Below, one piece after another: positions 1,817 to 34,782 of a stretch of 50,061 nucleotides of DNA. The notes beneath the pieces were generated by a model. The model was not told where the DNA came from. It saw only the letters and a list, made by a program, of their open reading frames with translations, and did not search any database. Position 1 is the first letter of the stretch; each line of letters begins with the position of its first letter. This DNA comes from Intoshia linei (taxonomy: Eukaryota > Animalia > Orthonectida): contig LWCA01000124.1 in assembly GCA_001642005.1 (NCBI GenBank), positions 1 to 50,061 of the forward strand, given 5' to 3'. A program made the translations under genes and the position numbers.

Positions 1817-2147
1817 AACTTCAGTAAAAATCGATACAAGTGAATCAACCGTAATATCTGATGATATACCTGAAACCTCTGATATACAAACAAAACCTGA
1901 AAAGCTATCAACCGACAATATTGAACTGGATAAACCGGTTATCAGCATCAAGGAAAATAAAAAGCCAATCAAACTAAAAAAAACACCTACAAAATTAGTT
2001 GTACCAGACGACCCTCAATATTACAACGAATGGCTACCACCCACTGGTATATTTGATATTATATTTTATACCTATAGATTTTATTACTTTTAATCAGATC
2101 AAAAAGGCGACGGAAAACTTGACATGAACGAAAAGTTTGGTTATTAA
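1817..2147 (+). CDS. SLC4A1AP: Kanadaptin (SLC4A1AP), last two exons (1817-2046, 2098-2147); upstream exons not identified
   Basis: Splicing a 51-nt GT-AG intron (2047-2097) gives ...VPDDPQYYNEWLPPTDQKGDGKLDMNEKFGY*. This matches the conserved kanadaptin C-terminus W.PP..Q.GDG.T.LN.K.GY. Confidence 0.82.
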
Positions 2148-2161
2148 GTTTGTACAATAAA

Positions 2162-5100
2162 TTATTTATTTTGTAATTTCGTAATATAGTGTTTAACTAT
2201 GGCGTGACTATAAGAGTAATTTTCCAGATTTGTAGATTTGCTTTCAATTTGCGAAAAGAAACCTTGAACAAAACATGCATATTCAGAAACAACAGATAGT
2301 TTTATGAAAATTTGAGTAACAATTTGTCGTAACTTGAGGGACTGGGAAATATTGAGGTAAATATGAAGAGAATTTACAAGAGGCATTAAATGCTTGAGAG
2401 AGTATATTTTGCATTTAGAAAAAATTAAATCAATGACGGTTAGATAACAATTCTGACACTTGAAAATGTAAGTAGATTGAAAATTAGTTTCAATATTTTT
2501 AAGTTTAGAGTAATTTTGCATATGACTATAAAGATTTTGATCGAAATAGGCAATGGAGTTTTTAAATTCATCCAGATCGGTAGGTTTATATAAAAGTGAT
2601 TCTGGGCCTAAATTAGTTAAATGTTCAATAAGTAATGGTAAAAGTTCAAGAAGAACGCGTCTTTTAACAAACTCGTTTGCTAATTCCAAGAGTACGGTGA
2701 CTACGTTCATCAAATCCTGTTGCATGATAACAGAACTGGAAGACATTTCGTTGAAATACTCAGATTTTTGATCCATAGAACAAATATTTTTAATTTTTTC
2801 AAAAATATTGTCTTTTTTAAGACAATTTGTAATGAGAGAAATTAAGACATGCCAAACCTTGTCAACGTATTGCAAAAACTCAGAATCAGTTAAATAAATA
2901 ATTTGTAAAAGAATAGCTACGGTTTGAAAAGTATTTCTATAGTCTTTCAACTTGTTTGAATTGAGGTTGGTAAAACACTTGCGTAAAATATGATCCAAAC
3001 AAATTTTACCCATTTTGATTTCAACTGAATTTTCTTCAATCGTAACCAATTTTTTGTCTGGTTTTGTATTAGCTTCAATTTCTTTTTTTATCATTGTTTC
3101 GAAATCCTCAAATAAATTTTCCTTGGTAATATTATTATTAACGTGTTTAAGATATTGGCCATCGTTAAAATCGACATTATAACAAAAATAAAGACGTTTC
3201 TTTATAGAAAATGATAATGATCGAAGTAATGTGGAATGTTGTTCAGTGTGTGTAAAACTCGATTCCAAATTAAACAAATTATCCATGATTGGTTCAATAA
3301 GATTGAGACATTTAGAAACATCAGAATTTTCAAAATTTTCATTGGACAAAAATTGAATACACGATGTAATAATAGTAATAGCCACTTGTGAATTGTTTGA
3401 CATGTAAATTGATTTTTCTGTATAAGATACAATAAAATCCATATTATCAGAAATCATTTTTACGAAACCACCAAGATCCCAATTTGAAATGATTTTCAAA
3501 GCTACAATGGAATTGATTCTAACAATATCTATACAACTCATGGAATGATATAAAAGGATACACAAAAATTTTTTCAAAACTTTCCAATTTTCACCATTTT
3601 TAGAATAAAATTTGTAAATATTTGTAACGAATCGTACAAACATGCATTCAAATATTGAAACAAAATTTTCAGTTTTAGATGTTGGGCTAGAATTTAAATA
3701 ATTTTCGTTAAAATATTCTACTAAATCATTCATAATTTGATTTAAACAAGGTGAACATTGGTCTATCAGATTTAAATCTTTTTGCATCTGTTTTGATTGT
3801 ACTTTTTCCTCGTGAATTTCCAAAAACATTATTACAAATAATAAATTGTTGGTATGTTTAGCATATTCACTTTTTACTTTTCTTATTTTTATTGAATCGG
3901 ATTGTTTTTTTAATAATAATTCCTTCTTTTTTTGTAAAGCATTTTTAGGGTCTTTCACAACAATTTCCGGTATTTTATTGGAAATTTTATCAATATTTTT
4001 GCACTCTGAAATCAAATTGGAAATGTTGGAATTTTTAGTATTTAAACTTTCCTTATTTTCATAATCACCAGATGAAACGTCTTCAAAATCATAAAAGTTT
4101 ACATTTTCAGATTTTTTCTTTTTTTCTACATTTTCAAGAATTGGGGAATTTTGAATATTATTAATCTCAGAATCCAATGAATCTTTAGAAATTACTTCGA
4201 CATCGGAATCAGTTTCTTCCAAAACTTTAATAAGTTCGGGACTGGGAGAAAGTTGATAAATAGAGTTTTCATAAACAGATGATACATTATGTTTTGGTTC
4301 AAATTCTGAATAAGGTGTAATATTAACTTTTTCAAAAATTTGCGGTCTTTTGGTGTTAATACATTCGGTACCGTTGAAAATTTTGTTAGAAATTACTAGA
4401 TCAGCTTTATTAGTTACATTTTCGAGTTTGGATTCTGTTTTAGGTTCATAAAACTTTTCAGACCCATAGTTAAGTTTTTTCAAGTCCTTGGAGCTCATTG
4501 AGTTTGAATCGGATAAAAATGACGATTTAGATTTAGAATGACTGTGACTAGACATTCCAAAACTATCCATAATTTTTGATTGTCTCTGAGCCAAATTAAT
4601 TGGATAATCGTATGATGCCTTATTAACTTGCTTATAAGCTGGTTGTAACACAGAACAGCTTTTTCTTTTACACGTACGTGACGCTAATGTTATAGGTTTC
4701 ACTTCTTTATCAAAACCATCTTCTTCATTAGCAAGGTTATTATTAACATCCAAAGTTGACAAACTGTCGGAAAGATTATTTACTTGTCGCTTTTTCTCAG
4801 ACTCATTTTCACCATGAAAACTATTTGACAGTTTTATCGAGTCATCAGATTCTGAAGATGAATTTGATATAGTACATTTCATATTATAAATTGATTCTCT
4901 AGAACTTTTAATATCAGACAGACTGCTCTTGACATAATCATCTTTCTGAGTCGACATATTGGTCTTTTTGATTTTTGAAGTATCCTGATATAAATCGATA
5001 AAACTTTTTAGACTATTAGCTGTGCCGAAATTTTTCAATTTAGACTTTAGTTTTACCGTAAAATTAACCTTTTCCTTAAAATCTTGACACATTTTAGGTG

Positions 5101-8100
5101 TTTGACCATTTTCACTAAATAAAATTTCTGAACTAACAGATTTTTTACTTCTTTTAATCAAATTTTTTGTTCCAGATGGATTTTTCGGCTCATCGTTCTT
5201 TGAAACTTTGGATTTCAATTTATTTTTCATTTTTAAATTTATATTATTTTTTGGATCCTTACATTTAACGGTGCCAACGCTATTGAAATTGTAGTTATTA
5301 AAAGAATCGATTGAATCTGATTCCAGGTCCAATTTTACAAATTGCCTAGGTAAGCTATTAACGGGGGATTTTTTATTTTTACCCTTTTTCTTAAATCCAA
5401 ACTTTGATTTAAGTTTGCTAGAAAACGTTTTTTTTATATTTGGAGAATCAGAGACATTACTTTCATCAACACTCAAGTCTAATGTATTACTAAAATCATT
5501 TCCCATATTCAAATTGTCGGTATAATTTGATTCATAAACATGAGTTGGTTCTATGTACGAATCGCGCAAAATAGATTTCGATGAATTAACTTTTTTAGCA
5601 AGTTTTCTCTGCGGTTTTATAGGCTTTTTTTCCAATGTCGTATCTTTTTCAATATTTTCTTGATTACATTTTTCTTCAACTTTTACAGTATTATCAGAAA
5701 TTGTATCAAAATTAATAGATTCCGGTACAAGAGATTTTACTTGAGGAAAATCTTCTTGAACCTCCATAGTTTGGTCTTCCATATTCAACATTAAATTAGA
5801 ATCAGTATAATGAATAGACGTTTCATCTTCTTCAACATTGTTTGACTGGGGTACTACTGTAGATGTCATAGATAAATTGTCTGAATAATTAGACCATACA
5901 CTTGATAACCGGCTCCTATGTACTGAATTATGTTCATCGTCTTCAAATGACGACTCGCATTCTGGAATTGTTTCAAGGGTAGATAGTTTGCAACCTATTC
6001 TAGACAACGATTTAATTTTCGACATGTTGGTCGACGTATTTGGATCAAGAATATCATAAATAGAATTTTCTACACATTGTGTATCTTCCGGTAATTGCTC
6101 ATTATGTTTCATTAAAATTTCTTCATTCAATTCAGGAAAATTATTACAATCATCAGGATTCGTTTCAAAATTGACACAACTTTTGAAACTTTCATTGTCA
6201 TCGCCGTCACTGATATCTGGAGAAAATGAACATTCCTTAAAATTATCATTTCCAAAGTTAGACGTGGAATTGGATGACATTTTAAAATTCATTTCATCAT
6301 CATCACATTTTTCCCGTTCATTTTCATTAGATTCAGTTTGAATTTGCACCAATATTTCATCATCTTTTAAATTTTTAGAAAGAGATTCAACAGGGTTTTC
6401 AATTGCAATTTTTTCTTTCGAAAATGAAGATTGCTCAAATTTTTCCTTCTCAGATATACACATGGAAATAGATGACATTTTAAAGTCCATTTCATCATCA
6501 TAACATTTTTTTCCTTCATTTTTATTAGATTCAGTTTGGCTTTGTTTACATTGCTCATCGTCGTTTGAATTTTCTGAAAAAATTTCGTCGTAACCAATTT
6601 CAAGTCCACGTTTTGAATGTAACGATTCTTCCAATTCTACCTTGTCAGAAACAGATGACGATTTAAAATCATTAATAATTTCATCAATATTTTCATTGCT
6701 TAGATTAGACTCATTCGTTTTAGAAACAATATTTTGAAATTTCGTTTGTTCACTGTCCATCGATTGAATTGGCTTAAAATTCGTAATAGCTGCAGAATTT
6801 TTATTAAATTTTTTTAATATATTTATAAATTTTTTCTTTATTCTTGGTTTTTCACTTTTAGTAAATTTTTTTTCATATTCAAATTCGTGTTTCGAATTCA
6901 AGTTACAACTTTTGGCATTATTTTCAGTATAATTACTTTTTTCTTCTTCTTTATTATCAATTTCATTTTTTATTTTCAATAGTTGGAATAGATTATTGGA
7001 AAATAAAATTTCATTCGAATTGTCTATATTTGCCTTTTTAGTTGTAGATTCATTTACATTATGAGAAGCTTTAAAATTTGTTACTATATATTGATTAAAC
7101 GTTTCAGTCTCAACATCAGATTCACTTTTATGAGTTTCATAAATTGTAGAGGTTTTTACAATATCATTACAATCAACATTGGATGATTGTGTTTGATTAT
7201 GTTTTAATTTCAGTGCAAAATGTGTTTTTATTCCCATCTTTTTTGAGGGAGATATCAAATTATCCTTTAAATTAGTTTCTGTTTCTTTTATTTCTAAATT
7301 TAATACAAATAAATATGATTGAATGTTTGAGTATAAATTAGATGGGAAATGGTAAATAAGTCTCAATTCTCATACTATAAAAATTATATATTATAAAAAT
7401 TAATAACCAAACTGTCAATCGGGAATTTTCAGATTATTTTTTTTTAAAAAACCTTAAAGAGGAAGATTTTTGAAGATTATTTTTTGACCAAACCTTAAAA
7501 AGGAGGTTTTTTGAAGATTAAACCTCTTTAAGGTTTGGTTTAAAAAAATATGTTCATTAGGGGTGTGAAAGAATTTTTATATAAAAAGTGCACTCTTCCA
7601 CCATATGGACATTTTGAAAATATTCAATTTGCACCCAACCTTACCTCTCAACTGTTAAAAAACCCTGGGGCATCGCATGTAAAGTTTTGAACAATATATC
7701 GCTCACAGCAATTAATATATGACAATTTTCTTAAAAATATTATTTTAAATCTAAAATTTTTTATACAAAAAGCTATAAAGATGATCAAAATTATCGTCTA
7801 GCGAATTATGAACACCGAATTGTTATAAAACCGATTCTAATGAGAAAACTGAATAAATAAAAAAAATATCAATTGAAAATTAATTGTTATAGAAATAATT
7901 ATCACTATGAAATTTACTATACAAAATAAATTAAATTTTGCTCATTATTCATATTTTGACTTTGCCCCAGGGTTTTTTTTAATACTTTTTATGTAATTTT
8001 TTGATAATCGTGTATCATTCAACCCCATCTTCCACGTATGAAGTAGCACTTTTGTATTTTCGCAAAAAAGTGAAAAAATTCACACCCTAATGTTTATAAT

Positions 8101-10726
8101 ATATAATTTTTATACAAGCTAATTCCTATTTAACGGAATTCCTTCATAACATAACGATGCTATAGATACAAAACTTCAACCCCAAAAGTGTACACATTAC
8201 CGGTGAAACATAACTTTAAATATAGTATTAACCAATATTTTGAAATGTTTGGATTTAATCAAGAATGAAAATGTAAATACTCATAAATTGCATCCTTGGG
8301 TTTTTTCATTTTCAAAAAATATAAAAAACTAATTAAATAATTAAGCGTATTAATTTTTAAATTATCTTAAATTATTTTATAAAATTTTGATTAAAATATG
8401 TCAATCCTTAATTTAGAGTAACCTTCACTAGAATATTAAAAATACAATTACCATGACTAGACGAAAAATCCATTTCATGATTTTTTTCTTTTTTGCCAAA
8501 AAATACATCATTTTCCAAAGTCTCAATAGTGCTTAATTTATTAATATTAATATCGTTCAAATTTAAAATGTCATCATTTTTTGAATCAACAGAGTTGGAT
8601 AAAGATTTTTTATGAACAGAATCGGACGTTAAATTTTTTTTTTCCATAAAAACAGAATCTGAAGAACTAAAATTTTCTATATTTTCCAGACTAATATTTT
8701 TAAATTGAAAAGTTTCATTTGATGAATCAAGCAAATCATTCACATGTTTAGCATTAGAATTTGAATTAATACCACTTTTAGATTTAGATTGATATGATTT
8801 ATTTGGAGAAAGTAACGTGCCTTTTTTTTTAAGTTTAGATGCCAATTTAGGATTGATTCTCATTTTACCAGTTGAAGTTTGTTCTTTATTAAAATTGAAT
8901 TGATCCGAACCAAAACTGGATTCTATAGGTAAATGTTTATGGTTCCAAATTGTAATTTGAAATGTAGGCAAATCTTTAAAGGTACACAATAAATATTCTA
9001 AACACTTGTATGGGTTCAGATTAACCAAAGTCCACATTAGTAATTTGATATAGTCCAATTCTTTATTTTGGTTATCTTGCGAAATGTACTTGTATTGAAT
9101 TTTAGAAAATACATTAACTGTACTGTAAATTTGTTGAATTTCAATTTTAAGAGTAATATATTCAATCAAAGAGTACATAATTTTTGTAGACAATAAATCA
9201 TTAACAGTATTATCATTTTCGGTAAACGGAGGTTCAATTAATTTAATGTTGACACTTTGGTTAATAAGAAAAAGTGAAAACTTTGAAAAATTGGAACAAT
9301 TTATCTGTAAAATTTTTTTGTGATCCCATAAAATTGATTTTGAATTAAATTGGTTTAATATACTAATTACCGCATAAATTTCAGTCAATTTATAATTATT
9401 TCCTACGTCTTTAATATCGTTTTTCATTTCTTTTAATTTATCAAAATTTTCATTTAATTGATCAATATTTGAAGTCAATTTATAATGAAAACTATCTAGA
9501 AATGCTGCAGAATTTTTGGCGAATTTGTAAACAAAAATATTGAAAATTAATAACTTGCAATATTTTGAGAATTTATCAGAGGATAACTCTGTATAGTAAT
9601 ACAATAAACTATCCAATATGGACTGATTCATAACCTTTTCAACGGAAGAACAATGCACAAATTTTAATAAAAGAACCAAGATGGACATTTTAGTGGCTTT
9701 TGATGCGTCATGTCGCATTTTCAAAATTTTTTCCATATAAATGAAAAGTTTGGGTAAAACTGACTTGAACCAGTCGGAATTTAGCTGACATCGAAACGAA
9801 TTTGAAGAAACTGTATCATATGTGATGGCTACATTTTGATATAACAAAAATGTAAACAAATAACCCAATAATTGGAGAGAATCGATGACAGTTTTATCTG
9901 AAAAACTGTAAAAAGTACAAAATGTGGAATATATACTTTTGATTATTCCCGGTAAAAAATAGGCCATTGATTCTTTACATAAAATTATGCATTTATTGCA
10001 AAGGTTCATTGCATGTGGTTTTCCAGATTCAAATAAAAAACAGTTTAAAGCAATAATAGAAATGGACCGGATCTTTGATGAATTATGATTAATCTGGTAT
10101 AACAAAAAAGATATAAATGTGCCAATTCGAGTCAGCGTAGTGGTTTCTTGTTCTCCAGGTTTCAACGGTGTATATATTGATATATTGCAATCACCATTTT
10201 TCTTCTTCTTTACGACTGTTCCATATGCTTCTACGGAATCGTCATTGTCCCAATCATCATTTTCCAAATTTACATTTTTTTTACAGCTACCATTTTTCAA
10301 AATTGTTAAATATACATTCAAAATTGATAATAAATTGATTTCGGATGATTTTTCTTTAAGATGTTGGCTAGAAATGATGAGCACTATATATTCAAATACT
10401 TGCTTGTGAAATTGTTGAAATTTTACAAATACTTTAATGTTTGATTTTAAATTTAAGTCTGTTGAATTGAATACTTTTTCTATAAAAAGTCGAGTGAATT
10501 TTAGACTTTCTTCCAATAAATGACTAGATTTTGCATCCAAGTTTTTTATTTTTATCAACATTTTTAAAACCATAAATCTAATTGATGAAAAAATTAAATC
10601 GTAACAATTTAGTAATGTTATTCCATCAATTTTTAACAATAATTTTGATAATGCAGAAATAATTTCCACATTCGGCAATTTCTTCCGAGTCAAAATACAT
10701 TGACAAATTTGAGTTATCTCAGACAT
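2162..10726 (-). CDS. TTI1: TELO2-interacting protein 1 (TTI1) with a ~1,300-aa internal low-complexity insertion; exons 10726-8452 and 7293-2162, ~2,468 aa
   Basis: The N-part has IGTFISFLL...SSKIRSISIIAL...MAYFLPGI and the C-part has ISDNMDFIV, YVDKVWHVL, EFVKRRVLLELLPLL and YIFKCQ...IYLNISQSLKLRQ, which recall TTI1 blocks. The phase-1 donor (CATG|GTAAT, 8452/8451) and acceptor (TTTAG|AA, 7294/7293) join the two long ORFs in frame. Confidence 0.8.
7558..8089. mobile_element. MITE with TAGGG(G)TGTGAA termini (hATm-like) in the TTI1 intron
   Basis: Termini are TAGGGGTGTGAA and TTCACACCCTA, with flanking 8-mers ATGTTCAT and ATGTTTAT (7/8 TSD). Subterminal inverted blocks include AAAAGTGC/GCACTTTT and AAAAACCCTGGGGCA/TGCCCCAGGGTTTTT. 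Confidence 0.75.
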
Positions 10727-11559
10727 TTCTCTATATTAATTATTTTAAAAACATACTGATTGATCTAATGTTTACCTAGTCTTTATCATTTTAATTGTAT
10801 ATATGACAACGTTTCTTTATCGTTACAAAGACAAAATTTTGGCACATATCACATTACATATATGTTTATATTTTTGTCTGTAATTAAAGTTTACTTTAAA
10901 CAGGTGATTATCAAACTTTTTTACTTGTTGAGAATTTCAAGATACACCAATACCTATTTACATAATAAATTATAAAAGTAGATGCAATTTCAATTCTCAG
11001 GAATAACCGTTTTTGAGACCTGATGTAATGTTTTTTATTATTTTATGTAGTTTAAATTATAATGTTACAAAACAACTCTACGCTATATATCATGAATAAC
11101 ATACTAACTGTTAGTATGATATTATGCAATTTGGGGCGTATATAAATAACTCGGAAATAAAATTATTATTGCAGTTCGACCTCGATTTTGGACACCAAAT
11201 TTTGTAAAGTGCTCCAAAACAGGTTTTAATAAATTACTTAATTTTTTATTAATATAATTGTAAATACTTAAATTGTTGCAATGTTATGATTAGGGCCATT
11301 TATGTAACTTTATTCACCTACTAGGTCACGGATTATTAACCTTTTTCCACTTTGCACCCAAAAATTTAATAAACTTAAATTAAACATCGATATGATAAAA
11401 ATACACCAAAACACTGGTTAGTCCAATTTATCAATATAATTTATTTTAGTGAATCCATAAAGAATATAATTATCACTCCACTTTCCTTTTTTTTGACGTA
11501 TGTAAACAGAATTTAACTTTATTTTCGAAACTTCATTCAACTTGATTCTAAGTTAGGAT

Positions 11560-12137
11560 TCCTAATTTATATAAAAGGCTACGCGATTTTTCTTTGTGTG
11601 TGTGTGTGACTTTAATGAAATAACTACCACTCTTAGAATTTTTTAGAGACCAAATTTCAATTACAGTTTTTTCCGGAACGTATAAGATATCTTTCAACCT
11701 CCCAATTTTACATTTTACTGTCAAAAACCCCTATTGTCCCTCTTTTTGAAAATCAAACGTGTTGTAGAATTTAAAAAAACATATACGCTGATACGGATAA
11801 TAAAGTCATAAACATTACTATACGTTTAAATTTAAAAAAATTATATCTTTAGGGCCAAAACCACAAATTACCCTTCTTTTTTTAATGAAAACAGCCCTAG
11901 AATTTTAAAAAATTTACAGGTTTTACAGTTGTATTCTGTTAACACACACAGAGAATTTCAATCTGAATAAGTGACGACTTCACGGTCAAAAAAGCATTTT
12001 AGTATTCATATATTTATTTTCTGAAATATTTTATTGAAACAAAAAATGTGAAATAATTAACTGTCCAAAAATTAAAAAAAAAAGATTATTCTGATAGAGC
12101 TTATTTCAGTTGATATAAATACAAAATTTCAACCCCA
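11560..12137 (+). mobile_element. Non-autonomous Helitron, 3'-truncated copy
   Basis: Begins TCCTAATTTATATAAAAGGCTACGCG followed by a (TG)n tract. It is highly similar to 15793-16290 and 20661-21180, and the similarity stops at AACCCCA. Confidence 0.75.
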
Positions 12138-12459
12138 TTTGTATTTGTGCATATGAAATTTAGATAACAATTCTTAGTGCAAAATGTAAATTTTATCATC
12201 AATTTTTAGTCGGTTGCTCATAAGCTTTAAGTTCAAACAGACTAAGGCTTAGAGTTAGGCTTAGTCACTAACCCAGTTTTTGATATTCATTGACAACGAA
12301 ACGACATTTTTTGTTGTATAACAACGACGTTGACATAATTAAAAAAAATATAATACATATTTTGTATTAAAGTTTAATAAAAAATAAAAAAAAAAATTTT
12401 TTTTATAATTTAAACATACATTCCATTTATGTAATAAAATTAGCCGTTTTGTTATAAAC

Positions 12460-13105
12460 CAGTGTTTTCCAATCTTTTTTATGCTAGGCCCCACTGAAAA
12501 AAATTCGAGCGAATTATAATAAAATAATGATAAAAACAATAATAATGTATTTATTTTTTAGAATTAATGAGACGATTGAGCCTGACGATTCTGACAGAGT
12601 TTATTAATATTAGGTACTAATGTTGTAAGCTTTAATCGTAGATCTCTCCTTTTTGAAATTTGTAGTCTATTTATTTTTTTGTCAGTAAGTCTAAACCCGC
12701 ATTCTGCTATATAAGAGGATGGAAATGGCAACAAAGCAATCCTAGCAAAAGTAGTTAAAATTGAAATTGATAATTTTGAATATTTGAATATAATTTTGAA
12801 TTTTGAATCATTAATTTAGTTAAATTTGAATTCAATAGCCCACTATCATTAAAGATATATTTGTTTTTTGTCATTCTAATAATTACTAATAATTATAATT
12901 TAATAATACAATTAATTGATTCAATTATTACATAACCACTTATAAACCTGAGAATATTGTATAAAATCAACAATAAATTAATTTAAAATTTTCATAATTC
13001 TATAAATTTGTTATATTTCCCAGGTCCCACCAAATTTCCAATGTTTCACAAAAAAGTTCGTCATGCCCCACCAGTGGGGCCTGGCCCCACAGTTGGGAAA
13101 CACTG
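12460..13105 (-). mobile_element. Internally deleted Buster-type hAT element retaining the transposase C-terminus
   Basis: TIRs are CAGTGTTTTCCAA and TTGGGAAACACTG, with a perfect 8-bp TSD TTATAAAC (central TA). Minus strand 12755-12564 reads FARIALLPFPSSYIAECGF...NRLQISKRRDLRLKLTTLVPNINK, then after a frameshift LCQNRQAQSSH*, which is the hAT dimerisation domain end. Confidence 0.92.
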
Positions 13106-13704
13106 TTATAAACAGACTAAATTATCAACATATAGGATGTAAATTTAAATACAAATTGACATTGCTGTCTCTATTTGGGACCTTGAAGGACTCAATTTCT
13201 GTGAATAAAATTTGCGATTAAATAAAGATAAGATTACTTGTTGATTACTATTTCTTGAATGAGCATTTTACTACAAAAAAAAAATACATTCAAATCAAGA
13301 AATTTAATAGATATCAACGTTTTCTAGTTTCAATGTCAGTATATTTCCATTTATAGAATTCTATTCTAAGTTAGTCAATGTAATATTTATGTTTATTTGT
13401 TAGCATGTTTACATCAAGTGTATACTTCCAGTGTATTGTGGTCAATATATATTTTTGTGTAGTTTAAACACAATTTTAAAAATTGATGGACTTGTTTGAA
13501 CTAAAATAAAAAAAAAAATGATTTTTTTATACATAAAATTATGGGCAAAGATATTTTAAATCACTTAAAGATATGTTTTAATTTTAATAATTTGTAACTG
13601 CACAGTGCTCAGTTCGCAGTATTTTTTTCTCATAATAATCAATTACTGTAGAAAATATTATTATTAACAAATTATAATTATGCACTAGACTTGTAACTAG
13701 CTAA

Positions 13705-14255
13705 TAAAAAAAATCAGCCCAAAAATTTAATAAAACATACATTCAGGGACGCGTTTTAAAATCATTAACATTGTCGTTAATATCAACCTTAAAAACGCAT
13801 ACATTCATAGTCAAAACCACAAATTACCCTTTGTTTTAAAAATTAAACATATCCTAAATTTTTTTTAAACGTTAATTCTCGAATAGTTTTTAAGATCATA
13901 AAAATAATCATAAATGGAAACCTCAATAAAATATTTGTACTTTATTTTTAATATTATACACACCTTCTGTCTAATAAATTAAAAAAATGGTATAACAATT
14001 GTTTTTAAAATTCTTTACGCAAATGTTAACAAAAAAAATTAAGATGGAATAATTCACTTTAAAGTAAAAAGTAATGTAATATGATGGTTCCACCTGAAAC
14101 AAATTTGGGAACCACTCCTTTATAGGATTGATAATAGTGAATAGTAGTATTGTTAGGTAAAATTTTCTTATTGAATTTATTTTTCTGGTAGAATAAATAT
14201 GTCAGCCCTCGTCAGTGATAGGATTCTGTTTGTACGAAGTACCTAACAGTTAATG
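13705..14255 (+). mobile_element. Diverged Helitron-family copy (internal and 3' part)
   Basis: Contains CAAAACCACAAATTACCC, the TTTGGGAACCACTCCTTT block and a degenerate terminal hairpin (CTGTTTGTACGAAGTACCTAACAG). The segment 13710-13770 also matches 21870-21930 in reverse. Confidence 0.6.
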
Positions 14256-14607
14256 TAATATTATATAATATATCCTCTAATTATAGGACGAATTTGCAAC
14301 CCATCAGTTTACGCCTGACTTACATTTTAATATTGACTTATAGACTATATACAGCACTCGTTACGAATTAGTTTGTTAAAGTCTATTATACTTAAAAAAT
14401 TTGGAGGTATCCCAATCCACCACTGTAGTGCCGTAACTGGTCTGCAATTTAGGAAAGACTGCATTTCTATGTAAAATATTTAATACAACATAAATATTTG
14501 CTAAAATTAAATGGTAAATATTTAGTAATGTGCTTCATTCAAGTTCGCAATACTGTTTTTACTTAACTGTTTCAACTTTGAATGCAAAATAGGAAATTAT
14601 TTTCTAG

Positions 14608-17600
14608 TTCGATAGATCTACGTGCCAACATTAAAAGAAATGTGGATACTACAATTATGGTTACAATTCAAAAAGATTAATTAAAAATGTCTTAGTTTTT
14701 AGGTAAAATTGACAATTTAACAAAAAAAAATATTGAACTTTCTGATTTAAAGACTGAAAAACTAGTTAGTTCATCATTAAACTTTTCATCATTAATTCAG
14801 GTTGGACCAGTTAATTTTAAAGCCACGATTTGTCTATTACCATCAGTCGTCAGACTAGAATTTGCAAGGAAAATGAATGTAGATAAATAGTTTAAACAAA
14901 TTAAACTTTATTTAGACAAAACAAGTTTCCCATTACACGATTGAACGTGCGAGGTACATTATGTATGTTAGATGTAGAATAGATATATAAAAAGGAAACA
15001 TGTAGAATCTACATTGTAGATAAACAAAAACATAATCACCAATTAAAAATAGTGATCAAATTCTATCTAAACTTTATGATTTTTGTAAGCACATAAATCA
15101 TTTATGATTAATGTTGCATTTTTTGTATACACTGTACTTTCTTAGATTGATCCCATTTTGACTTGTTCTTTAAAGGAAATAAAAATGCATATTGCATATA
15201 CATTTAAATCGATAACGCAAAAGAGTCCGAATGGGTTGCCCGTTGTTTAACTTTCTGACTAATAAACTACGTCGCTTAAGAGTACATTAAAATATTAATT
15301 ACATCATATAAATCACAACCATGTAAATGTAAGAATTACATGTTGCTATATTTGAGATTTTTGTAATATACTGTATTGCAATTTTAAAATATATACAGTA
15401 CAACGTTATCTACTATAAATGTATTATCACCAAAATATGTTCACAAAAGTTAATTTACATTTTTATTTGTTGACACTTACAATCAAGTAAATGTAGCTGT
15501 TTTAACAAATATATAAAATTATTTTAAAAATTAATTTAAACCACATGATATAATTATATAACTTTTTTTATATTATAATATAAAAAAAAATAATATTTTT
15601 CTGTCCGTTACCGTCGCAGGACTCAACTTTTATCACCAGCCCTCAAAAATTAAAAATTGTTTCAAATTCATTGATATATGAACTTTACTTTTTACTTTAT
15701 ACCACAATTTCTTAATCGGTGTTAGCACCCTTAGGGATGTTACAATTAATTTCAAAGTGTGCTAAAAAAATTATTTTCATGAAAAAATAAAATCTTAACT
15801 TATATAATATGCTAGGCGATTTTTGTTTATGTGTGTTACGCTTTATTTAAATAACTACCCGTCTTAGAATTTTATAAAATCCACATTTCAATTACAGTTT
15901 TTTCCGGGACGTATAATAAGATAAATTTCAATCCTCCAATTTTACATATTACGGGTCAAAAACTTCAGTTGTCCCTCTTTTTGAAAATCAAACGAGTTGA
16001 GAATTTAAAAAAATTATATCTTCAGGACCAAAATCCCAAATTACCCTTCTTTTTTTAACGAAAAAATTTACATGTTTTACAGTTGTATCCTGTTAACACA
16101 CACAAAAAATTTCAATCCGAATAAGTGACGACTTATCGGTCAAAAAAGCATTTTAGTATTTATATATTTTTTTCCGAAATATTTTATTATAACAAAAAAT
16201 GTGAAATAATTAACGGTCCAAAAATTAAAAAAAAAATATTATTCTGATAGAGCTTATTCCAGTTGATATAAATACAAAATTTCAACCCCAGAAATCTACG
16301 CATTCCAGATGAAAAATAATTTTTAATATATTATCAACCAATATTTTTCAAATATTTCGATTAAAATAAAAATTAATGTAATGTGATGGTTCTACTTGAA
16401 ACATATTTGGGAACCACTCCTTTAAAGGATTGATAATATTTAATAGTAGCATTTTTAAGTTAGATTTTTAACATGAATTTATTTTTTTATAAAAATGTGC
16501 CCTCGGCAGAGCTAGGTGCTGTTTGTAAGTAGTACGTAACAGTCGAGCTAGTTAATTATATTTTACTTTGTCGATTATATAAGTGGATTAGTTAAATTTA
16601 AGTGAATTTAAATCTTATCAGATACAGATTCTATTTCAATTTTTAATATTTATTGATATTATTAATTATGTTCATATTAATAGGATGATTTTTAAAAATG
16701 TCAATAAAATACAATTTTATGTTCTCATTTTTTATAGAGGTGCTGGAAATAATTGATCTGGATTACGGGGTAGTAAAATTTAGAAACCTACTCTATACTA
16801 TGAACCTGTTCTACTTTTTCATATTAAAATTAAAACGATTGAGAACCACTAGTTTAAGCTGTAAAGTACAAATGTATATAATTAATTTTAATTTAGCATC
16901 AAATCTGTAATTGTGAGGGAACTGGTATTATATGTAGTTTGTAGCCAATCAACCAATAAAAAAATGATTTGTTACATATTCCAGACAAAAACATCTGTAT
17001 GATAAATATACTAGAATGTATATAGAATACTTATAAAATTTAGAACGCCCTGGATGGAATACTTTCCAATTTATTAGATAAAAAATCAAATGTAAAAAAC
17101 TATGGTATACAATGAAATATATAAATTCTAAAAATAAAAAAATTTAGTTAAACTGTCCGATCAAAACTACGTATCTTCGAATTTAATAAAAGCTTGTAAA
17201 TCGAGTGGTAGTGTAGATGAAGATGAATACATTAATATAAAAATGGATGCAAGTATTGATTCACAAAATAATCAAAAAGCTAGAAAATCAAATGATACAA
17301 AATCAATGAAAGACAACATTTTTACTAAAAAATTAAACACATTTAGTGGCCATCGAAAATGTATGAGTTCTTTAAACTATAAAGAAAAACCGAAAGAAGT
17401 AGAACAAAGTTCGGACTATCAAAATGTGGAACCCGATCAAGTTTTCCAAATAAGTCAAAATATAAACATCGATAAAAAACCTTGCCTAAACTGTTTAATG
17501 TTAGACGTCAAAATTGGAAAAGTTGAAAAAAATAATCACAATTTGAGTCTAGAAAATCAAAAATTAAAAAACAAAATTAATGAAATACTAACTCTCAAAT

Positions 17601-17666: not shown

Positions 17667-19533
17667 TTAAATTTGTGGTTCTTCTACGCCAAATGTAATG
17701 AATATATTATATAAAATTGACATTGTTTCTTGCGATAATTTTTCTACAATATCTAAAAATTCATTCGTAATTAATAAATATTTATGTAATGCTTCGCAAA
17801 ATCGTTTCGCACAATTTCAGATTAAATCAGCATTTCTCTATATGAGGGGTCGTCAACTTTTTCGACGGATGGGCATATTTTATAATTTTAATAGCTTCGT
17901 GTGTAGCAAATGTATCCTTTATATAAAATGTATATACAATTGCACAATTGAATTTGTATATGTAATTGAAAAATTGAGAAAATTAAAAAATTCTAGAATT
18001 TAAGAAAACCCAATTTCTATACATTTTTTTGAGACTCATGTTTTATCGCAACATTACCTGAAGGTGTGACGCTATCTCTATTTATACCAAGAATATCCAT
18101 CAATTCGAAGGCTATTTCGACATTTTTCAACTAAATTAAAATTATTAATAAAACATTTATATTTAAAGATTAAACCTTCTCCGATAAAGACATAGCACTA
18201 GGGTGAAATCGATGGAGAGGACAGCAAAATTTCCCGCAAATGGATAAAACAACAATCAAATAAAATCCATCATGAAACTAAATTCAATACGGCATACAAA
18301 ACAATAATGTTTGATTTACATCATTCAACAAATTATTAACTTTTAAATTCAAATATGACAATTGATCAGAGAAAAATGTTGTAATATCCTAAAATGTTCA
18401 ATCAAATCAAGTAAATGAAGATATACATTTTTTAATTTAGGTATGGAATTTGGATTTTGTTCGCATAAAACCTCAAAATTTGAACGTGACGCTTCAACTT
18501 GATCTCGAAAATGTTGAGTCAAAAGAACCACTTCCTTTTTACTGTAAAGTTTTCCGTCTACTTTATTAATAATGACTTTAGTCACAGTCAAATTTGGAGT
18601 TAGTTTAGCTTCAATGTTGTAATTGTAGTACAAAGCTATCAGAAAATGTAAAATTTCAATTGAATCGTTATTATTAATTCCTAATCTTCATTATTTCAAT
18701 AAATATTAAACTTAACCATAAGGCGTCCATTTTATAACACGTTCTACATTATTCGGGAATAACACGTCATCGAAGCATTGAATTATCACAGTTAATTTTT
18801 GAATTTGACCTTCTTTTGTATAAGTTAATTCGGGTAGTTTTATTTTTAAATTTTCCAAAACCTCTAAATCACATTGTACAATGTACCTGATTGTTTCAAT
18901 ATGGTTGTGTTTAATATAATTATATTTATAAAAGTTAAAATATAATAATACGTTACAATGGAGTAATCTTTTTAAGACCTTCTGAGGGAGTTTTGAAACA
19001 AATTGTTTAGAACTTTATCTGAGAAATTTGAGAGGGTTTAAAAATAAAATATTTACCATATTATTATAATTATATAAACTCGACCAAAATAAACGAAAAC
19101 TGTATATTATTTAGTTTTTTACCCAAAAGGTTTTGCAAAACTTGTCCGTCTCCTAAATCTGAATATATACTTTTTATGACAATTCTTGTATCGATGAGTT
19201 CTGAATTTATCCATTCCAGCAAACTATTTTGCAAATTAACTATATTTGGGTGTCTTAATGAGACTTTATCTACCATTGTTACTTCATCTGCTTCTTCTGT
19301 TAATATTATAAATTGTAGCTTTTTAGATTTACCAAAAAATGGTTATTCAAAACTTACTTTCCGCCTGCGAAATAAACTCGCTTTTGCTTAATGTATCTCC
19401 AGATATAAGTGTTTTTGCTTCTCCAGCAATTCGATCATCTTGTTTTAATTTAATATTATTTTTATTTTAAATTACATGTTGCTTTTTGAAATTTTTTCTG
19501 TAATTTGCTCAATGTTCCAAATTTTCCTTTCAT
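17667..19533 (-). CDS. PARV: Parvin (two calponin-homology domains), multi-exon
   Basis: Start reads MKGKFGTLSK. CH1 is LLEWINSELIDTRIVIKSIYSDLGDGQVLQNLL and the linker is RSNFEVLCEQNPNSIPKLK. CH2 is FHDGFYLIVVLSICGKFCCPLHRF...NVEIAFELM...DIVEKLSQETMSILYNIF, with the stop at 17667-17669. Confidence 0.9.
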
Positions 19534-28821: not shown

Positions 28822-31800
28822 ATGATACGAATTTATACAATTATAACTTTTCTAGCTTGCATAGGCAGTAAAAATACTTTTTTTCAAAGTAAAAAATACC
28901 AAGTTGTATATACCCAAGGAGATGTTATGATTGGTGGTATATTTCCAGTTCACAAATCTGAATCCAACAATAAAACTAGATACAAATGTGGTGATATGTG
29001 GCTTTTTAGAGGATTACAGAGAATGGAGGCAATGTTGTTTGCTATTGACAAAATTAATGCCAGCAAAGACTTGCTAGTTGGCATTCAACTAGGCAGTTTA
29101 ATTGTTGATAGTTGTTCATCTGTACATCACGTTTCACAAGAAACATTAAACGCTTTTGTTAGAGGTACTTTACGACACGAAGAAACACCCAGCAGCAGTT
29201 CATGTAGAAATTCTATACAAAAATTAAATTCGCCTTTCAATTTTAAACCAGTAGTGTCAGTTGTAGGTGGAGCATACAGTTCAATTTCCATTGGTGTAGC
29301 CCATTTACTTCAACTTGTCAAAATACCCCAAATAAGGTTGATGAAATTACAGTTTAATAATTATCTATTTTACAATTTAGTTATGCTTCTACTAGCTCCG
29401 CACTAAGTGATAAACTTGAACATCCTCTTTTCGCTAGAACCGTAATGTCAGATTCTCTGCAAGCTAAAGCCATTTCGGACATTATTATTCATTTCAATTG
29501 GTCCTACGTAGCTGTGGTAAGAATTTTTAATAATTTTTTAAAATATACTAGATTTATTCATCTGGAGACTACGGAAGCACCTTTGTCGAAGCATTTAAAG
29601 TCGACATTCAAAGAGCGAAACATGTTTGCATTATGGGATATTTCAAAATAAACAATTTAATGGACCAAAATGATATTACCAATTTGATTGCGAAAATAAT
29701 CCTAAAAGTTAAAATTGTGGTACTTTTTGCTAGAGCGGAAGATATACAAGCTATATTAACAATATACAACAAACACACACATTTTAGAGAACAGTATATA
29801 GAATGGGTAGCATCTGACGGTTGGGGTACACAATCTTTACCAGTAAAAAACAACGAGAAAGCAGCCATAGGTACTTTATCTATTGAATTATCTTCTAATC
29901 ACATACAACCATTCGATGTCTATTTTAAAAATCTCAATTTACAAAATAATAACCGAAATATTTGGTTTAAAGAATTTTGGGAAACTATTCACGAACATAA
30001 TTTTGTTTATAGACAAGAATCTATGATTTCTTATGTCATTCAATCCGTATATGCTGTTGCTTTTGGAATTGAAAAATTTGCAAACAAATATTGCCATAAA
30101 TATTCTATACTTTTAAGGGAATACCTAAAAATAAATTATACAGAAATGGATAGAAATAAAAATATAAAAAATCTTAAAAATGTTTTTAAAAAGGAATGTA
30201 CTCCAAAATTACTGGATGATGGGTTATTATTGTATAAAAGTATTATTTCTCTCTCCAAAAATGGTATATTCAATATTTTATTTTATTTATTGTTAATAAA
30301 ATCAATAATTAACAAAATTTGAAAATTTTAAGTTTTTGAACGGTTTCTGTATGAAATTTTTTTTGAACGATGTCGAATTTCATAGTTAAGGGCAGAGACG
30401 GGGCATTTACTGTTCGAAAGTCGCACTAACTTCCCCCCAAAAAAATTGATTAGGCTTCACTTTTCTTAATAAAATTTAATCAACTACAGCAGTGCTTCTC
30501 ATGGGGATCAATAATTTTATTAGAGGGTGAATACGAACATTTTAGATGATTGGAGTAAATGATAAATTATTAGCATATTTTACTCAATTTAGTAAAATCT
30601 TATGAGAAAAAACCAAAATTTTACATAGCTTATGAGAAATAAACCCTTTTTACCAATATTTTTTTGAAAAATTCCATTTTACCAAAAATTAATATTTTAA
30701 ATATAATATATAATAAATAAAGTAATTTTAAATGAAAATAATTTAACTTGTTCAGAAGGCCGCACCAAATCGTCAATAAAGCCGCATGCGGCCTTAAAGT
30801 CGCACTTTCCCACCTCTGATTTAGGGTCATACTGTTCTAAATTAATAGGTAATGTTGGAAAAAGTTTCCATATTGTGCGGCGAAATTTTTTACTCCAACA
30901 GGGTCACCAAAAAAAATTAAACGGTTGAAAGAGAGACCAAAAATTTTTTAATTTGTATATATGGGTCTAAAAATTGTCATATAATCCAGGGCTTCCCAAC
31001 GGGAGTCATGTGGTCCCCAAGGAGCCAAAGAAATTTTGATATTAATTATAATTCCTCTAAAAATAGATAAAAATATCCTAATGGTGTATTCCAGTGTTTA
31101 TCAAATTTTTTCCATTGGAGAAGATTGGAAGAAATTAAAAAATTTTTCGGTCAAGCAAATAAGATAAAAACAGTTTTATGTTTGTTGGTGCTTACTGAAA
31201 ATCTTTATAGTAATGATTTTGAATGGAAAACCTACCAATATTAGAAAAAAAGTTGTTTCGATCAAAAAACAAAAAAATCTCACATAACTTACCCTTTGTG
31301 AAACGGTATACACCTCGTTTTTAATTTATAGACTGTAATTTATCGGCTGTAGCTGTTGAGCAACACTGGTGTATTCATACAGATGAAAACGTTTTATGAA
31401 ACTTTAAAGTTAGAGTAAGTAAACAAATCTATGAATTGGAATATTTAATATTTGGTAAAAATTAATCCTAAAAATAATCTTTTAAAAATCTTGAACCTTA
31501 AAAAAGACTACAAACAAAATTGATAAATAAATGTACTGTAATTATTTAAGTAGTCAAAATGTTTTCTTATTATAAAAGTTTATATCAATAATAACGTGCA
31601 TAATTATACACCCATCTAATTATTACACCTACGAATATAAATTATATAATATCTAATTTTTATTACATTACAAGTGAAGTATATTGTACATTGTAGTTGA
31701 TTTTTAAAATGTGAAATTAGATCAGTACGTCTCAAAATTTTCCAGACAATATAGAAAACGGAACACTAATGATAGAAATTGTCTTGTGGAACACATATGT

Positions 31801-34782
31801 TGTACATTTAATACACAAATTTTTTCAGATAGATCTAAAGCAGTGGTTCCCAATTGCGGTCCCTGAATCCCTTGTGGTCCAAAACTATTTATCTTGGGGT
31901 CCGTGAGATTCAAATAAAATATTTAAAAATTTTGATCAATTTTAAAATTTTTAATTATTAATAATACGGCATTCATTCAGTAATAGTAAGTTTCTAATTG
32001 TCTAGATATGTAATCACTTTCTTCGTTTAATTAAAATTAAAGTTTGTGAATAATTATTAAAAGTTGGCCTAATTGAATTTTTTATATTTTAGATTCTTTC
32101 GGAAACAATATCCATTTTAATAAGAATGGGGATGGAATTGGTTCGTACAACATAATGAATTTTGTATTCGACAACAGCACTGATTCGTATACGTACAAAA
32201 AAATAGGAGAATGGAAAAATAAACTATTCCTAAATGATTCAGACATACAATGGCCCAATAATCAAAAATTTATCCCAACATCACTGTGTTCAAAAAAATG
32301 TAACAATAACGAGTATGCAAAAATGCAAAATGGTTTATTTAGCTTTTAATTCCAAGGCATTTATCACAGGGTCGTCAAATGTTTGGATTTTATACAAAAT
32401 CCTAGACCAGCGGTTTTCAACGGTTGGCGAATCGCTCACTGGGGGTTTTTCTATTTCATTTCACATAATACATAATCAAAAAAAAAATTTTATTAATAAT
32501 TATTATAATTTATTAATTCTAAAAAGAGTTACATTTTTTATATTGTTAATTACAATGAATATATTAAATTTTAAATTATAATTATACATTATGTTAATAC
32601 TCCGCCAAAAACTAAAATAAGATACAAAAGTATTAAAATTTTTTAAGAGAATTATTGGCTATATGGATCAATTCTTGAAAAAATTGAGTAACGGTAAAAA
32701 CTCGTCACTAACAATTAATTGAAAACGTAAATTTTTTTATCCAAAGAAAACAAGAAAACTAAAAAATTTATGAAAAAATGAAGGGTTTTTATCACAGATT
32801 TGGTAAAATCATATTTTTTAAAAAAATTTTGGAAAAAGGGAATTCTTTATTTTAGGGTTTGCTAAGTCGATTTTTTGCTGAGGGTATAAAATGGTATTTT
32901 TTATTAAATATTATTAAAAATGAGATAAAAGTGGTGTTTTTGAAATGATAATGTAGCGGCGTCTTAGATTTGGGATAAATTCCTAAAATTTAGCAACTCT
33001 GTAATAAATATTAAAAATTTTCCTATAAAAATAAACCAAAGTTGATAACAATTTTTTTATATTTTTGGATCCACTCATTTATATTATACGGACGTTTATT
33101 CATTCATACAGATATTTTTTTCAAAAATCTGATTTTACCAACCTGATGAGAAAAAACCTCTTAATCCAACCTCAAAATAAAAAATGCAAGTATACTAATC
33201 CTTAAGTGTAAAATCCCCTTTTTTCAATATTTTTATTGTGAAAAATACGATTTTACAAAACATTATGAAAAATGACCTCTTAATCCTCCAGTTTCAAATC
33301 TCACATGTTAAATTTTAACATGTAAATTAGACACATCCTGCTGTTGGAGATGTATAAAATGTAACAACTGGGAATACAAATTAAACAGTGCAACATGCAA
33401 AATGTGTCCCGTTGGAAGATGGCCGGATGCAAACAGAACTGGATGTGATCAAATATTTCCTTTTTATTTTAATTTAACCTCTGTATATGCAATTGCTCCA
33501 ATTTTATTGGTTTTATTGTGAATATATAAAATATAATTGTACCATTAATTAGAGCTTAATTGGAATTCTATTTGTAGTTTTAACAGGAATATTATTTTTG
33601 AAAAATATTCAACATCCAGTTGTAAAAGCGAGTGCACGAGAACTGACTACGACAATACTTTTAGGTTGTCTAATGTGCAATTCTAGCGTTTTTCTTCACA
33701 TGATAAAACCTACTCCAATTTTATGCAGTATTAAACAAACAGTTACAACGTGTTCCTTTTCAGTGATATATGCATCAATTCTTATTAAAAACAATCGCTT
33801 GGTCAGAATATTTTACAATACTTACAATAAAAAAAACATTAATTTTATTTCTCCAGCATATCAATTACTTTTCACTTTTTTATTGGTATTTTTGCAGTTT
33901 TTAATTTGTATAATCTCTATTATCATTGAACCACCAAATGTTGAATATTTTCACCCTTACCGAAGACGTCATATTTACATCTTAATGTGCAAATTTAGCA
34001 AAAATAGTTACATTTCTTCTTTTGTTTATATTCTCATTCTTATACTTATCAATACTGGATATGCAGTCAAAACACGAAACGTTCCAGCAAATTTCAATGA
34101 AACAAAATATATAGGTAGATATAATAATATACCCCTCCCATAAATTGTGCAATTAACATAAAACCATCTTAAGTAACATTTCTGAATTGTAGAATTTAAT
34201 TGAAAAATTGTAGATTTTTTATTTCGTGAGCTATTGAGTACTAAGAAAAATTCCGTTGCTTTTGATATAATAATAAAAACTTCTTGTTAAACTAGTCGAC
34301 ACTAATCAGCCAATAGAAAATTATAAAAATCATTTAAATAATTGTTTTTTTACTAAAAATTCCACCTTAAATTACTTTGCACTAAAATTTTGTCTAAATC
34401 CAACTAATTTGTTTTGGAACCGTTAGGTCAAACTTAACCGGTTTTGTGATTCTTAAATATGAAAAATATTTAATACTAATTTCCCAAAATACATAAAATT
34501 TAGGTTTAAGCATGTTTGCTACGTGCATTATATGGTTATCCTTCACTACATTATACTACGGAACCTACAATGTCCACGAGGTAAATTAACATTTTCTTGA
34601 TATAAAGTTTTTAGATACAAACCATGGCCATTTGTTTAACACTGAGCCTGTCAGCGTCAGTAATTATAGTAATACTCTATTTTCCAAAATGCTACAACAT
34701 TCTATATGTAACCCAAAATAGCAACAAATCAATAAAAAATCAATATGATAAAGCAAGTACTAGTTTGAGAAGAATTACTTAA
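28822..34782 (+). CDS. Metabotropic glutamate receptor-like class C GPCR (group II-like motifs), multi-exon
   Basis: Has a signal peptide and Venus flytrap motifs GDVMIGGIFPVH, RGLQRMEAMLFAIDKIN, GGAYSSISI, IPQISYASTS, SGDYG, WVASDGWG and NNNRNIWFKEFWE. The nine-Cys domain is SLCSKKC...CCWRCIKC...CKMC...GC. The 7TM region has [39 protein letters not shown] and YFPKCY, with the stop at 34780-34782. Confidence 0.93.
30393..30818. mobile_element. Charlie/MER30-like hAT MITE in an mGluR intron
   Basis: Termini are CAGAGACGGGGCA and TTTCCCACCTCTG, with flanks GTTAAGGG and ATTTAGGG (6/8). There is a subterminal GCCGCATGCGGC palindrome. It is homologous to 37235-37390 and 41943-42244. Confidence 0.75.
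31841..31915 (+). mobile_element. Solo hAT left end (similar ends at about 738, 30987, 32408 and 45331)
   Basis: CAGTGGTTCCCAA is preceded by ATCTAAAG (an NNNTANNN target) and followed by GGTCCC/GGGGTCCGTG subterminal motifs. No matching right end was seen. Confidence 0.55.

What the first reader, a model, noticed from the sequence alone, without database searches (positions are those of the whole stretch)
3870..8960. TTI1 interrupted by a ~1,300-aa low-complexity insertion, giving a ~2,470-aa protein
Seen: two TTI1-like halves are separated by about 1,300 stop-free codons of Ser/Asn/Lys/Glu-rich sequence spanning the single intron. Such a long open frame is very unlikely to persist neutrally in DNA this AT-rich. 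The break is sharp: the N-half stops after YKCLEYLLCTF and helical TTI1-like sequence resumes at EYAKHTNNLLFVIMF. Known: TTI1 is normally a roughly 1,000-1,100-aa HEAT/ARM solenoid of the TTT complex that matures PIKK kinases (mTOR, ATM, ATR and others), and its middle region binds TELO2. Inference: this is a giant disordered loop in a core chaperone, in an otherwise compact genome. Its many acidic Ser/Thr clusters (SSFEDDE, SSSESDDS, EETDSDVE) could be CK2-type docking sites.
Basis: partly seen in the sequence, partly recalled or inferred. Interest (0 to 1): 0.8.

Follow-up and report, generated by a model that had tools for sequence, protein, structure and literature searches.

The report
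TTI1 chaperone with giant disordered loop
In the tiny parasitic worm Intoshia linei, the kinase-chaperone gene TTI1 is spliced into one reading frame that carries about 1,300 extra polar residues in its middle, predicted to be disordered and likely a tolerated loop that still gains in-frame repeat copies, which more than doubles a normally ~1,100-residue scaffold.

Summary
Real. The minus-strand gene has three coding exons (10789-10776, 10730-8452, 7293-2162) and gives 2,474 aa, identical to Intoshia linei A3Q56_01570. There are two coding-region introns, not one. Spliced contigs from 3 of 3 runs (one study) skip 7294-8451 and run through both insertion borders, so neither misassembly nor routine splicing-out explains it. 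Pieces of both halves pass curated TTI1 Pfam cut-offs (35.1 and 30.2 bits, cut-off 27), with a weak middle hit in the right order. The ~1,317-aa insert is polar, predicted disordered, charge-blocky and has no homologue found; it is biased rather than truly low-complexity. It holds a 66-aa duplication, and contig arithmetic implies a third in-frame copy in the sequenced samples. CK2 sites are not enriched (41 vs 41.8 shuffled). Best reading: a tolerated, duplication-grown loop in the central solenoid (0.6). No orthologue could be retrieved, so its exact structural site, its age and TELO2 binding are untested. The scan had not noted this on other DNA.

The parts
10776..10789 (-). First coding exon (ATG at 10789; 14 coding nt), preceded by 5' UTR
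   Evidence: Joint 10730/10776 in runs X2 and X3; spliced product equals P0003
10731..10775 (-).
   Evidence: retained in the X1 contig
8452..10730 (-). Second coding exon: N-terminal helical half plus first ~175 aa of the insert
9662..10147 (-). TTI1 N-terminal TPR/HEAT domain match (aa 200-361; PF24173 positions 134-303 of 330)
   Evidence: 35.1 bits, E 9.5e-9, curated cut-off 27; coordinates
7294..8451 (-). 1,158-nt GT-AG phase-1 intron inside the insert, holding dispersed repeats
   Evidence: skipped in 3 of 3 runs
3869..8977 (-). Insert, aa 590-1906 (1,317 aa; 3,951 coding nt split by the 1,158-nt intron): Ser/Lys/Asn/Glu/Asp-rich, predicted disordered, alternating acidic and basic blocks
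6419..6586 (-). First copy of the 198-nt (66-aa period) tandem duplication, aa 1001-1056
   Evidence: DNA copies 76% alike over 167 nt; protein score 108 vs shuffle maximum 48.5 in 30 shuffles
6221..6388 (-). Second copy of the duplication, aa 1067-1122; a third in-frame copy is inferred here in the sequenced samples
   Evidence: loop contigs of 219 and 194 nt, arithmetic
2162..7293 (-). Third coding exon (5,132 nt): rest of the insert and the C-terminal helical half, stop at 2162-2164
3338..3565 (-). TTI1 middle-region match (aa 2008-2083; PF21547 positions 1-77 of 90)
   Evidence: 15 bits, E 0.02, below the cut-off of 27
2282..2722 (-). TTI1 C-terminal TPR/HEAT domain match (aa 2289-2435; PF24181 positions 156-269 of 273; a weak further stretch covers positions 49-149)
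   Evidence: 30.2 bits, E 4.6e-7, cut-off 27; weak stretch E 0.074

Best explanation
This is the expressed TTI1 gene of the orthonectid Intoshia linei, spliced into one 2,474-codon frame, whose two helical halves likely still fold into the PIKK-chaperone scaffold while a ~1,300-residue polar segment, predicted to be disordered, likely hangs out as a tolerated loop. Shown: one frame, two TTI1-matching halves in order, insert kept in spliced transcripts, polar make-up, an internal 66-aa duplication. Inferred: the loop grew by in-frame duplications and insertions at a permissive turn of the central solenoid; selection keeps it open and hydrophilic, because a stop would cut off the C-terminal half that binds TTI2 in human and hydrophobic sequence would aggregate, but does not fix its length or exact sequence. 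The halves would pack across the loop and go on binding TELO2, TTI2 and RUVBL1/2 to mature TOR, ATM/ATR, TRRAP and SMG1.
For: TTI1 Pfam hits on both sides, collinear. Without the insert the protein is 1,157 aa, close to human TTI1 at 1,089 (PMC8278493), so no large part of the solenoid was replaced. Contigs bridge both insert borders in 3 of 3 runs and none of the listed joints skips it. The insert has coding-type composition: D+E+S 30.7% vs 14.7% expected from its own shuffled DNA and 11.1% from intergenic DNA; hydrophobic residues 27.6% vs 41.9% and 50.5%. Length is labile: a 198-nt duplication in the window, and loop contigs whose k-mers add to exactly 198 in X2 (194 + 64 nt, both seen) and X1 (219 nt plus an implied 39 nt), though the window's two copies share only 15 identical bases in a row and would not break a 31-mer graph. 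Of 14 differences between runs and window in the insert, 13 change the residue. No enrichment of CK2 or S/T-Q sites. In Plasmodium longer low-complexity regions gain longer indels (PMC7534687, passage).
Against: No orthologue was retrieved, so residues 362-589 and 1907-2007, which flank the insert, match no profile and the loop is not mapped on a structure. The whole protein and the whole N-half alone miss the curated cut-offs. The variation test has no power: the flanks also show 5 replacement to 1 silent. Charge is far more blocky than in shuffles (variance 14.4 vs 7.5 +/- 1.2, 0 of 1,000), which can signal function. A 1,300-aa neutral loop is costly in a parasite with a reduced gene set. 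Presence of TELO2, TTI2 and PIKKs in this animal was not testable.
Confidence: 0.6

Rival explanations
1. The insert is a working disordered domain: a phosphorylation-controlled tether or scaffold that recruits partners (R2TP, kinases, clients) or drives nuclear import or condensates, perhaps taking over the role of the TELO2 linker.
For: Strong non-random charge blocks and seven basic clusters such as those at aa 639, 1399 and 1822; polar composition well away from base-composition expectation; human TTT is regulated through CK2 sites in disordered linkers (TELO2 S485/487/491, TTI1 S828; PMC10178989 section 7.1).
Against: CK2 sites at chance level, no DSDD/DSDE motif (that this is the PIH1D1-binding motif is recalled), S/T-Q 4 vs 8.1 expected; copy number of a 66-aa unit appears to differ between window and samples; no Pfam family under E 0.01 in 5 insert pieces.
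Confidence: 0.2
2. The insert splits the central, TELO2-binding part of the solenoid, so the protein works as two separately folded modules on a long leash in a remodelled TTT complex, possibly without canonical TELO2 binding.
For: The insert lies at 51% of the insert-free length, in the central region that binds TELO2 in human (PMC10178989 section 5; PMC8278493); sequence around it has diverged beyond profile detection. Human TTI1 468-1089 is soluble and binds TTI2 without the N-terminal part (PMC8278493).
Against: Helical, hydrophobic sequence runs up to both borders and the insert-free length is near normal, as expected if helices on both sides are kept; PF21547 still gives a weak hit 100 aa after the insert.
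Confidence: 0.12
3. The insert is a captured piece of another gene or mobile element (it carries its own intron), fused in frame and possibly removed by proteolysis.
For: Mature codon structure (18 stops per 100 codons in one alternative frame) and an internal intron fit an old coding origin.
Against: No homologue among 7,988 scored candidates under 1,360 aa (longer proteins were not searched); no domain hits; no terminal or target-site repeats at the borders among 14 direct-repeat families (inverted repeats not searched).
Confidence: 0.06
4. Assembly or annotation artefact, or two adjacent genes merged.
For: No single contig spans the whole coding sequence: all three runs break at 6430-6455, and X2 and X3 also near 9290-9510. 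All runs are from one study and none is labelled RNA.
Against: The break is explained by the repeat and is bridged by a 64-nt contig in X2; spliced contigs cross both borders; samples differ from the window at 20 sites, so they are not the window's own source reads in sequence; there is no stop between the halves.
Confidence: 0.02

Closest known systems
TTI1 / Tti1, scaffold of the TELO2-TTI1-TTI2 (TTT) co-chaperone (Pfam PF24173, PF21547, PF24181)
   Same: N-terminal, middle and C-terminal TTI1 profiles in order; insert-free length 1,157 aa vs 1,089 in human; helical HEAT-like halves (Atlas look-alikes were HEAT proteins such as MMS19 and TRRAP at 0.93-0.95).
   Different: About 1,317 extra residues in the centre; so diverged that single-sequence HMMER over 1.84 billion representatives finds only itself.
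Low-complexity insertions in Plasmodium falciparum proteins (PMC7534687, passages)
   Same: AT-rich parasite genome, polar Asn/Lys/Ser/Glu-rich disordered sequence inside a conserved protein, length change by indels.
   Different: Here there are no homopolymer runs (maximum 4), it is one very long block, and it is in an animal. Whether such inserts are proteome-wide in Intoshia was not testable.
Disordered CK2-phosphorylated linker of TELO2 and the TTI1 S828 site (PMC8278493, PMC10178989)
   Same: Acidic Ser-rich disordered segment within a TTT subunit.
   Different: The TELO2 linker is 50-70 aa with a defined PIH-binding site; this insert is about 20 times longer, has no such motif and no excess of CK2 sites.

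Membership tests
TTI1 | N-terminal TTI1 TPR/HEAT domain (PF24173) above curated cut-off | tested here: met
   35.1 bits vs 27 on a 242-aa piece; not detected with the whole N-half or two partly overlapping pieces
TTI1 | Middle TTI1 domain (PF21547) | tested here: inconclusive
   15 bits, E 0.02, below cut-off 27, in the expected order
TTI1 | C-terminal TTI1 TPR/HEAT domain (PF24181) above curated cut-off | tested here: met
   30.2 bits vs 27
TTI1 | Continuous alpha-solenoid fold like solved TTI1 | tested here: inconclusive
   Single-sequence models are mostly helical but pLDDT 38 and 36; Foldseek gave no match at E 0.001 or better and no TTI1 in the listed rows
TTI1 | Length about 1,000-1,150 aa without a giant insert | tested here: not met
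   2,474 aa; 1,157 aa without the insert. Human length 1,089 from PMC8278493; the range across species is recalled. This is the variant feature, not a bar to orthology.
TTI1 | Binds TELO2 (centre), TTI2 (C-terminus) and RUVBL1/2; matures PIKKs | not testable with these tools
   No genome held for this window; partner sequences unavailable
CK2/PIH1D1-type phospho-docking linker | DSDD/DSDE motif or excess of acidic CK2 sites | tested here: not met
   No such motif; 41 vs 41.8 minimal sites, 8 vs 5.0 strong sites. The motif definition is recalled.
MMS19 (top Atlas look-alike for the C-half) | MMS19_N / MMS19_C Pfam domains | tested here: not met
   No MMS19 hit in any Pfam scan; Atlas hits shared under 150 of 256 features, below the same-family level

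The most novel reading that the evidence does not exclude
Orthonectid TTI1 has gained a 1,300-residue charge-patterned disordered domain that rewires the TTT complex, acting as its own tether to R2TP or to nascent PIKK chains in place of the TELO2 linker, and its length is tuned by a variable 66-aa repeat.
Probability: 0.15. Interest if true: 0.75.

Novelty: new variant of a known kind. Interest (0 to 1): 0.45.

Why it matters
TTI1 is an essential scaffold whose centre binds TELO2. A natural, transcribed version with a loop longer than the whole normal protein marks a spot where the solenoid can be opened, which is useful for TTT structure-function work and for tagging. It also gives an animal case of extreme protein growth in a parasite known for simplification, with copy gain apparently still going on. 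If the loop proves functional, it would show a new way of coupling TTT to its clients. If neutral, it is a striking but familiar kind of parasite insertion.

Tried and rejected
No whole genome is held, so TELO2, TTI2, PIKKs and the proteome-wide rate of such inserts were not checked. No RNA holder was listed by record; the three runs are judged to be cDNA from GT-AG joints and empty introns. Orthologue searches failed: C-half word search, 1 of 5,711 candidates (itself); C-half full HMMER, itself only; N-half aa 190-400 of P0001, 0 of 1,679. PDB sequence searches with four queries found nothing. The Atlas gave only generic HEAT proteins. AlphaFold2 on single sequences gave pLDDT 38 and 36, and Foldseek on those models was uninformative. 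The two-halves complex prediction returned no verdict (score 0.00) and is not used either way. Insert: no homologue under 1,360 aa; best Pfam hit E 0.016 (CARDB), taken as noise. Only one internal repeat beats shuffles; short KLKSK-like recurrences do not. Variation tests were not significant: density 14 of 20 differences in 53% of the coding length, p 0.10; no stop among 14 changes has P 0.47 by chance. The poly(A) loose end at 2176 belongs to the convergent plus-strand gene, not to TTI1. Contig depth falls toward the 5' end and was not used. The second human TTT structure paper (Kim et al. 2022) is not held.
Full report
Observation. The minus strand holds two long stop-free frames, 8408-10735 and 2162-7369. 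A GT donor at 8451 and an AG acceptor at 7294 join them in phase. The spliced frame starts at ATG 10789 and gives 2,474 aa, letter for letter the database protein P0003, annotated as hypothetical protein A3Q56_01570 of Intoshia linei. At the local intergenic stop rate such a run has a probability of about 1e-47.

Is it expressed as one unit? The runs are not labelled RNA and come from one study, but GT-AG joints and no coverage at 7329-7822 at 97% identity mark them as cDNA. In each run one contig runs from the N-half across the first border and the intron to about 6430-6455, and another runs from 6450 across the second border into the C-half. No listed joint skips the insert; 17 weaker joints were not shown, and contigs drop rare variants, so a rare skipping isoform is not excluded. 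No single contig covers the whole coding sequence. The samples differ from the window at 20 coding sites and by one in-frame 9-nt insertion, with no stop or frameshift.

Identity. The whole protein gives only a weak TTI1 hit (PF21547, 15 bits, aa 2008-2083). Scanned in pieces, aa 200-361 match PF24173 (TTI1 N-terminal, 35.1 bits, E 9.5e-9) and aa 2289-2435 match PF24181 (TTI1 C-terminal, 30.2 bits, E 4.6e-7), both above the curated cut-off of 27. I scanned 7 pieces and 16; the whole N-half and two partly overlapping N pieces gave no hit. Three TTI1-specific families in the right order make the assignment secure. Minus the insert the protein is 1,157 aa, against 1,089 in human (PMC8278493). The protein is very diverged: no orthologue came back from three sequence searches, four PDB sequence searches or Foldseek on low-confidence models. 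Residues 362-589 and 1907-2007 match no profile, so the insert is placed only as lying after the N-terminal domain and about 100 aa before the PF21547 segment, at 51% of the insert-free length. That is the central region that binds TELO2 in human (PMC10178989, section 5). By eye, against human TTI1 as I recall it, the flanking helices look like neighbours around residue 520-530, well before the known S828 loop; this is recalled and untested.

Nature of the insert. FoldIndex is negative in all 13 windows of 100 aa from 601 to 1900 and positive in the 12 outside. A two-change-point fit puts the borders at 600 (588-654) and 1882 (1852-1980). It is biased rather than simple: entropy 3.87 bits against 3.97 and 4.01, longest homopolymer 4. 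It is not raw intron DNA: D+E+S make 30.7% against 14.7% from its own shuffled DNA and 11.1% from intergenic DNA, and hydrophobic residues 27.6% against 41.9% and 50.5%. Acidic and basic blocks alternate more than in any of 1,000 shuffles. The proposed CK2 sites are at chance level (41 vs 41.8; strong sites 8 vs 5.0, p 0.14) and no DSDD/DSDE motif is present. No homologue was found among proteins under 1,360 aa and no credible domain.

How it grows. The insert has one clear duplication with a 198-nt, 66-aa period (aa 1001-1056 and 1067-1122). All three runs break their contigs here. The window's two copies share at most 15 identical bases in a row, too few to break a 31-mer graph. X1 and X2 each hold a short extra contig (219 and 194 nt) that starts at 6450, fits 6265-6450 with 18 differences and does not rejoin downstream; X2 also holds a 64-nt shared contig at 6421-6484. 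Their k-mers add to exactly 198 in X2, and in X1 with an implied 39-nt shared piece. The simplest reading is a third, younger, in-frame copy in these samples, which is either copy-number variation or a copy collapsed in the window's assembly. The matching X3 contig was not in the shown rows. Of 14 differences in the insert 13 are replacements, as neutral change would give, but the flanks show 5 of 6, so this test does not separate them.

Mechanism. The best-supported reading (0.6) is a working TTI1 whose central solenoid tolerates a huge hydrophilic loop. Selection would keep the frame open, because the C-terminal part binds TTI2 in human (PMC8278493), and keep the sequence polar, but would not fix length or letters. 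Rivals are a functional disordered domain (0.2; charge blocks for, no motif excess against), two tethered modules in a remodelled complex (0.12), a captured gene fragment (0.06) and artefact (0.02). Folding of the halves against each other, partner binding and the presence of TELO2, TTI2 and PIKKs in this animal are untested; no genome was held.

Literature. Seen: PMC8278493 (passages and section 9), PMC10178989 (abstract, sections 5 and 7.1), PMC13274921, PMC6543705, PMC7534687 and PMC10771493 (passages). PMC6543705 gives a median I. linei intron of 57 bp. Searches (listings only) showed no paper on an orthonectid TTI1 or on a TTI1 with a giant insert; none of the 25 papers listed contains 'Intoshia'. 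Subscription papers, including the I. linei genome paper and Kim et al. 2022, are not held, and no supplements were read; they could mention this gene. Earlier scan notes held no match to this finding; one unchecked note reports TTI1 fused to a methyltransferase in a protist, another sign that TTI1 architecture can vary.

Verdict. The gene is a TTI1 orthologue with an unusually large, apparently still length-variable disordered insert. It is a new variant of a known kind. The CK2-docking idea has no support from motif counts. Interest 0.45; 0.75 if the insert proves to be a functional tether (probability 0.15).

Noticed in passing
window 10941-11024 and 14526 onward, + strand: A divergently transcribed neighbour has an exon at about 10941-11024 spliced over a 3,501-nt GT-AG intron to 14526 (loose end, located, sites). 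Its first exon overlaps the TTI1 5' UTR head to head.
   Followed up: partly
window 10949-11404, - strand: A 451-nt 5'-UTR intron (GT-AG at 11404/10954) joins an upstream exon at about 11405-11517 in run X3, so TTI1 may have alternative 5' ends.
   Followed up: partly
window 1817-2176, + strand: A convergent gene with a 51-nt GT-AG intron (2045/2097) ends with a poly(A) loose end at 2176, overlapping the TTI1 stop codon tail to tail.
   Followed up: no
window 9569: All three runs carry an in-frame 9-nt tandem insertion in the N-terminal half relative to the window, so small in-frame duplications occur outside the big insert too.
   Followed up: partly
window about 17700-19530, - strand: Multi-exon gene with a calponin-homology match (PF00307, E 3e-4, below cut-off); it looks parvin-like from recall.
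   Followed up: partly
window 28822-34143, + strand: Class C GPCR (ANF_receptor and 7tm_3 above cut-off), with no large insert in the three exons scanned.
   Followed up: no
window 7294-8451, 11100-16900: Introns and intergenic DNA are full of dispersed repeats with very high contig depth, including near-identical blocks around 11600-12200 and 15800-16300.
   Followed up: no
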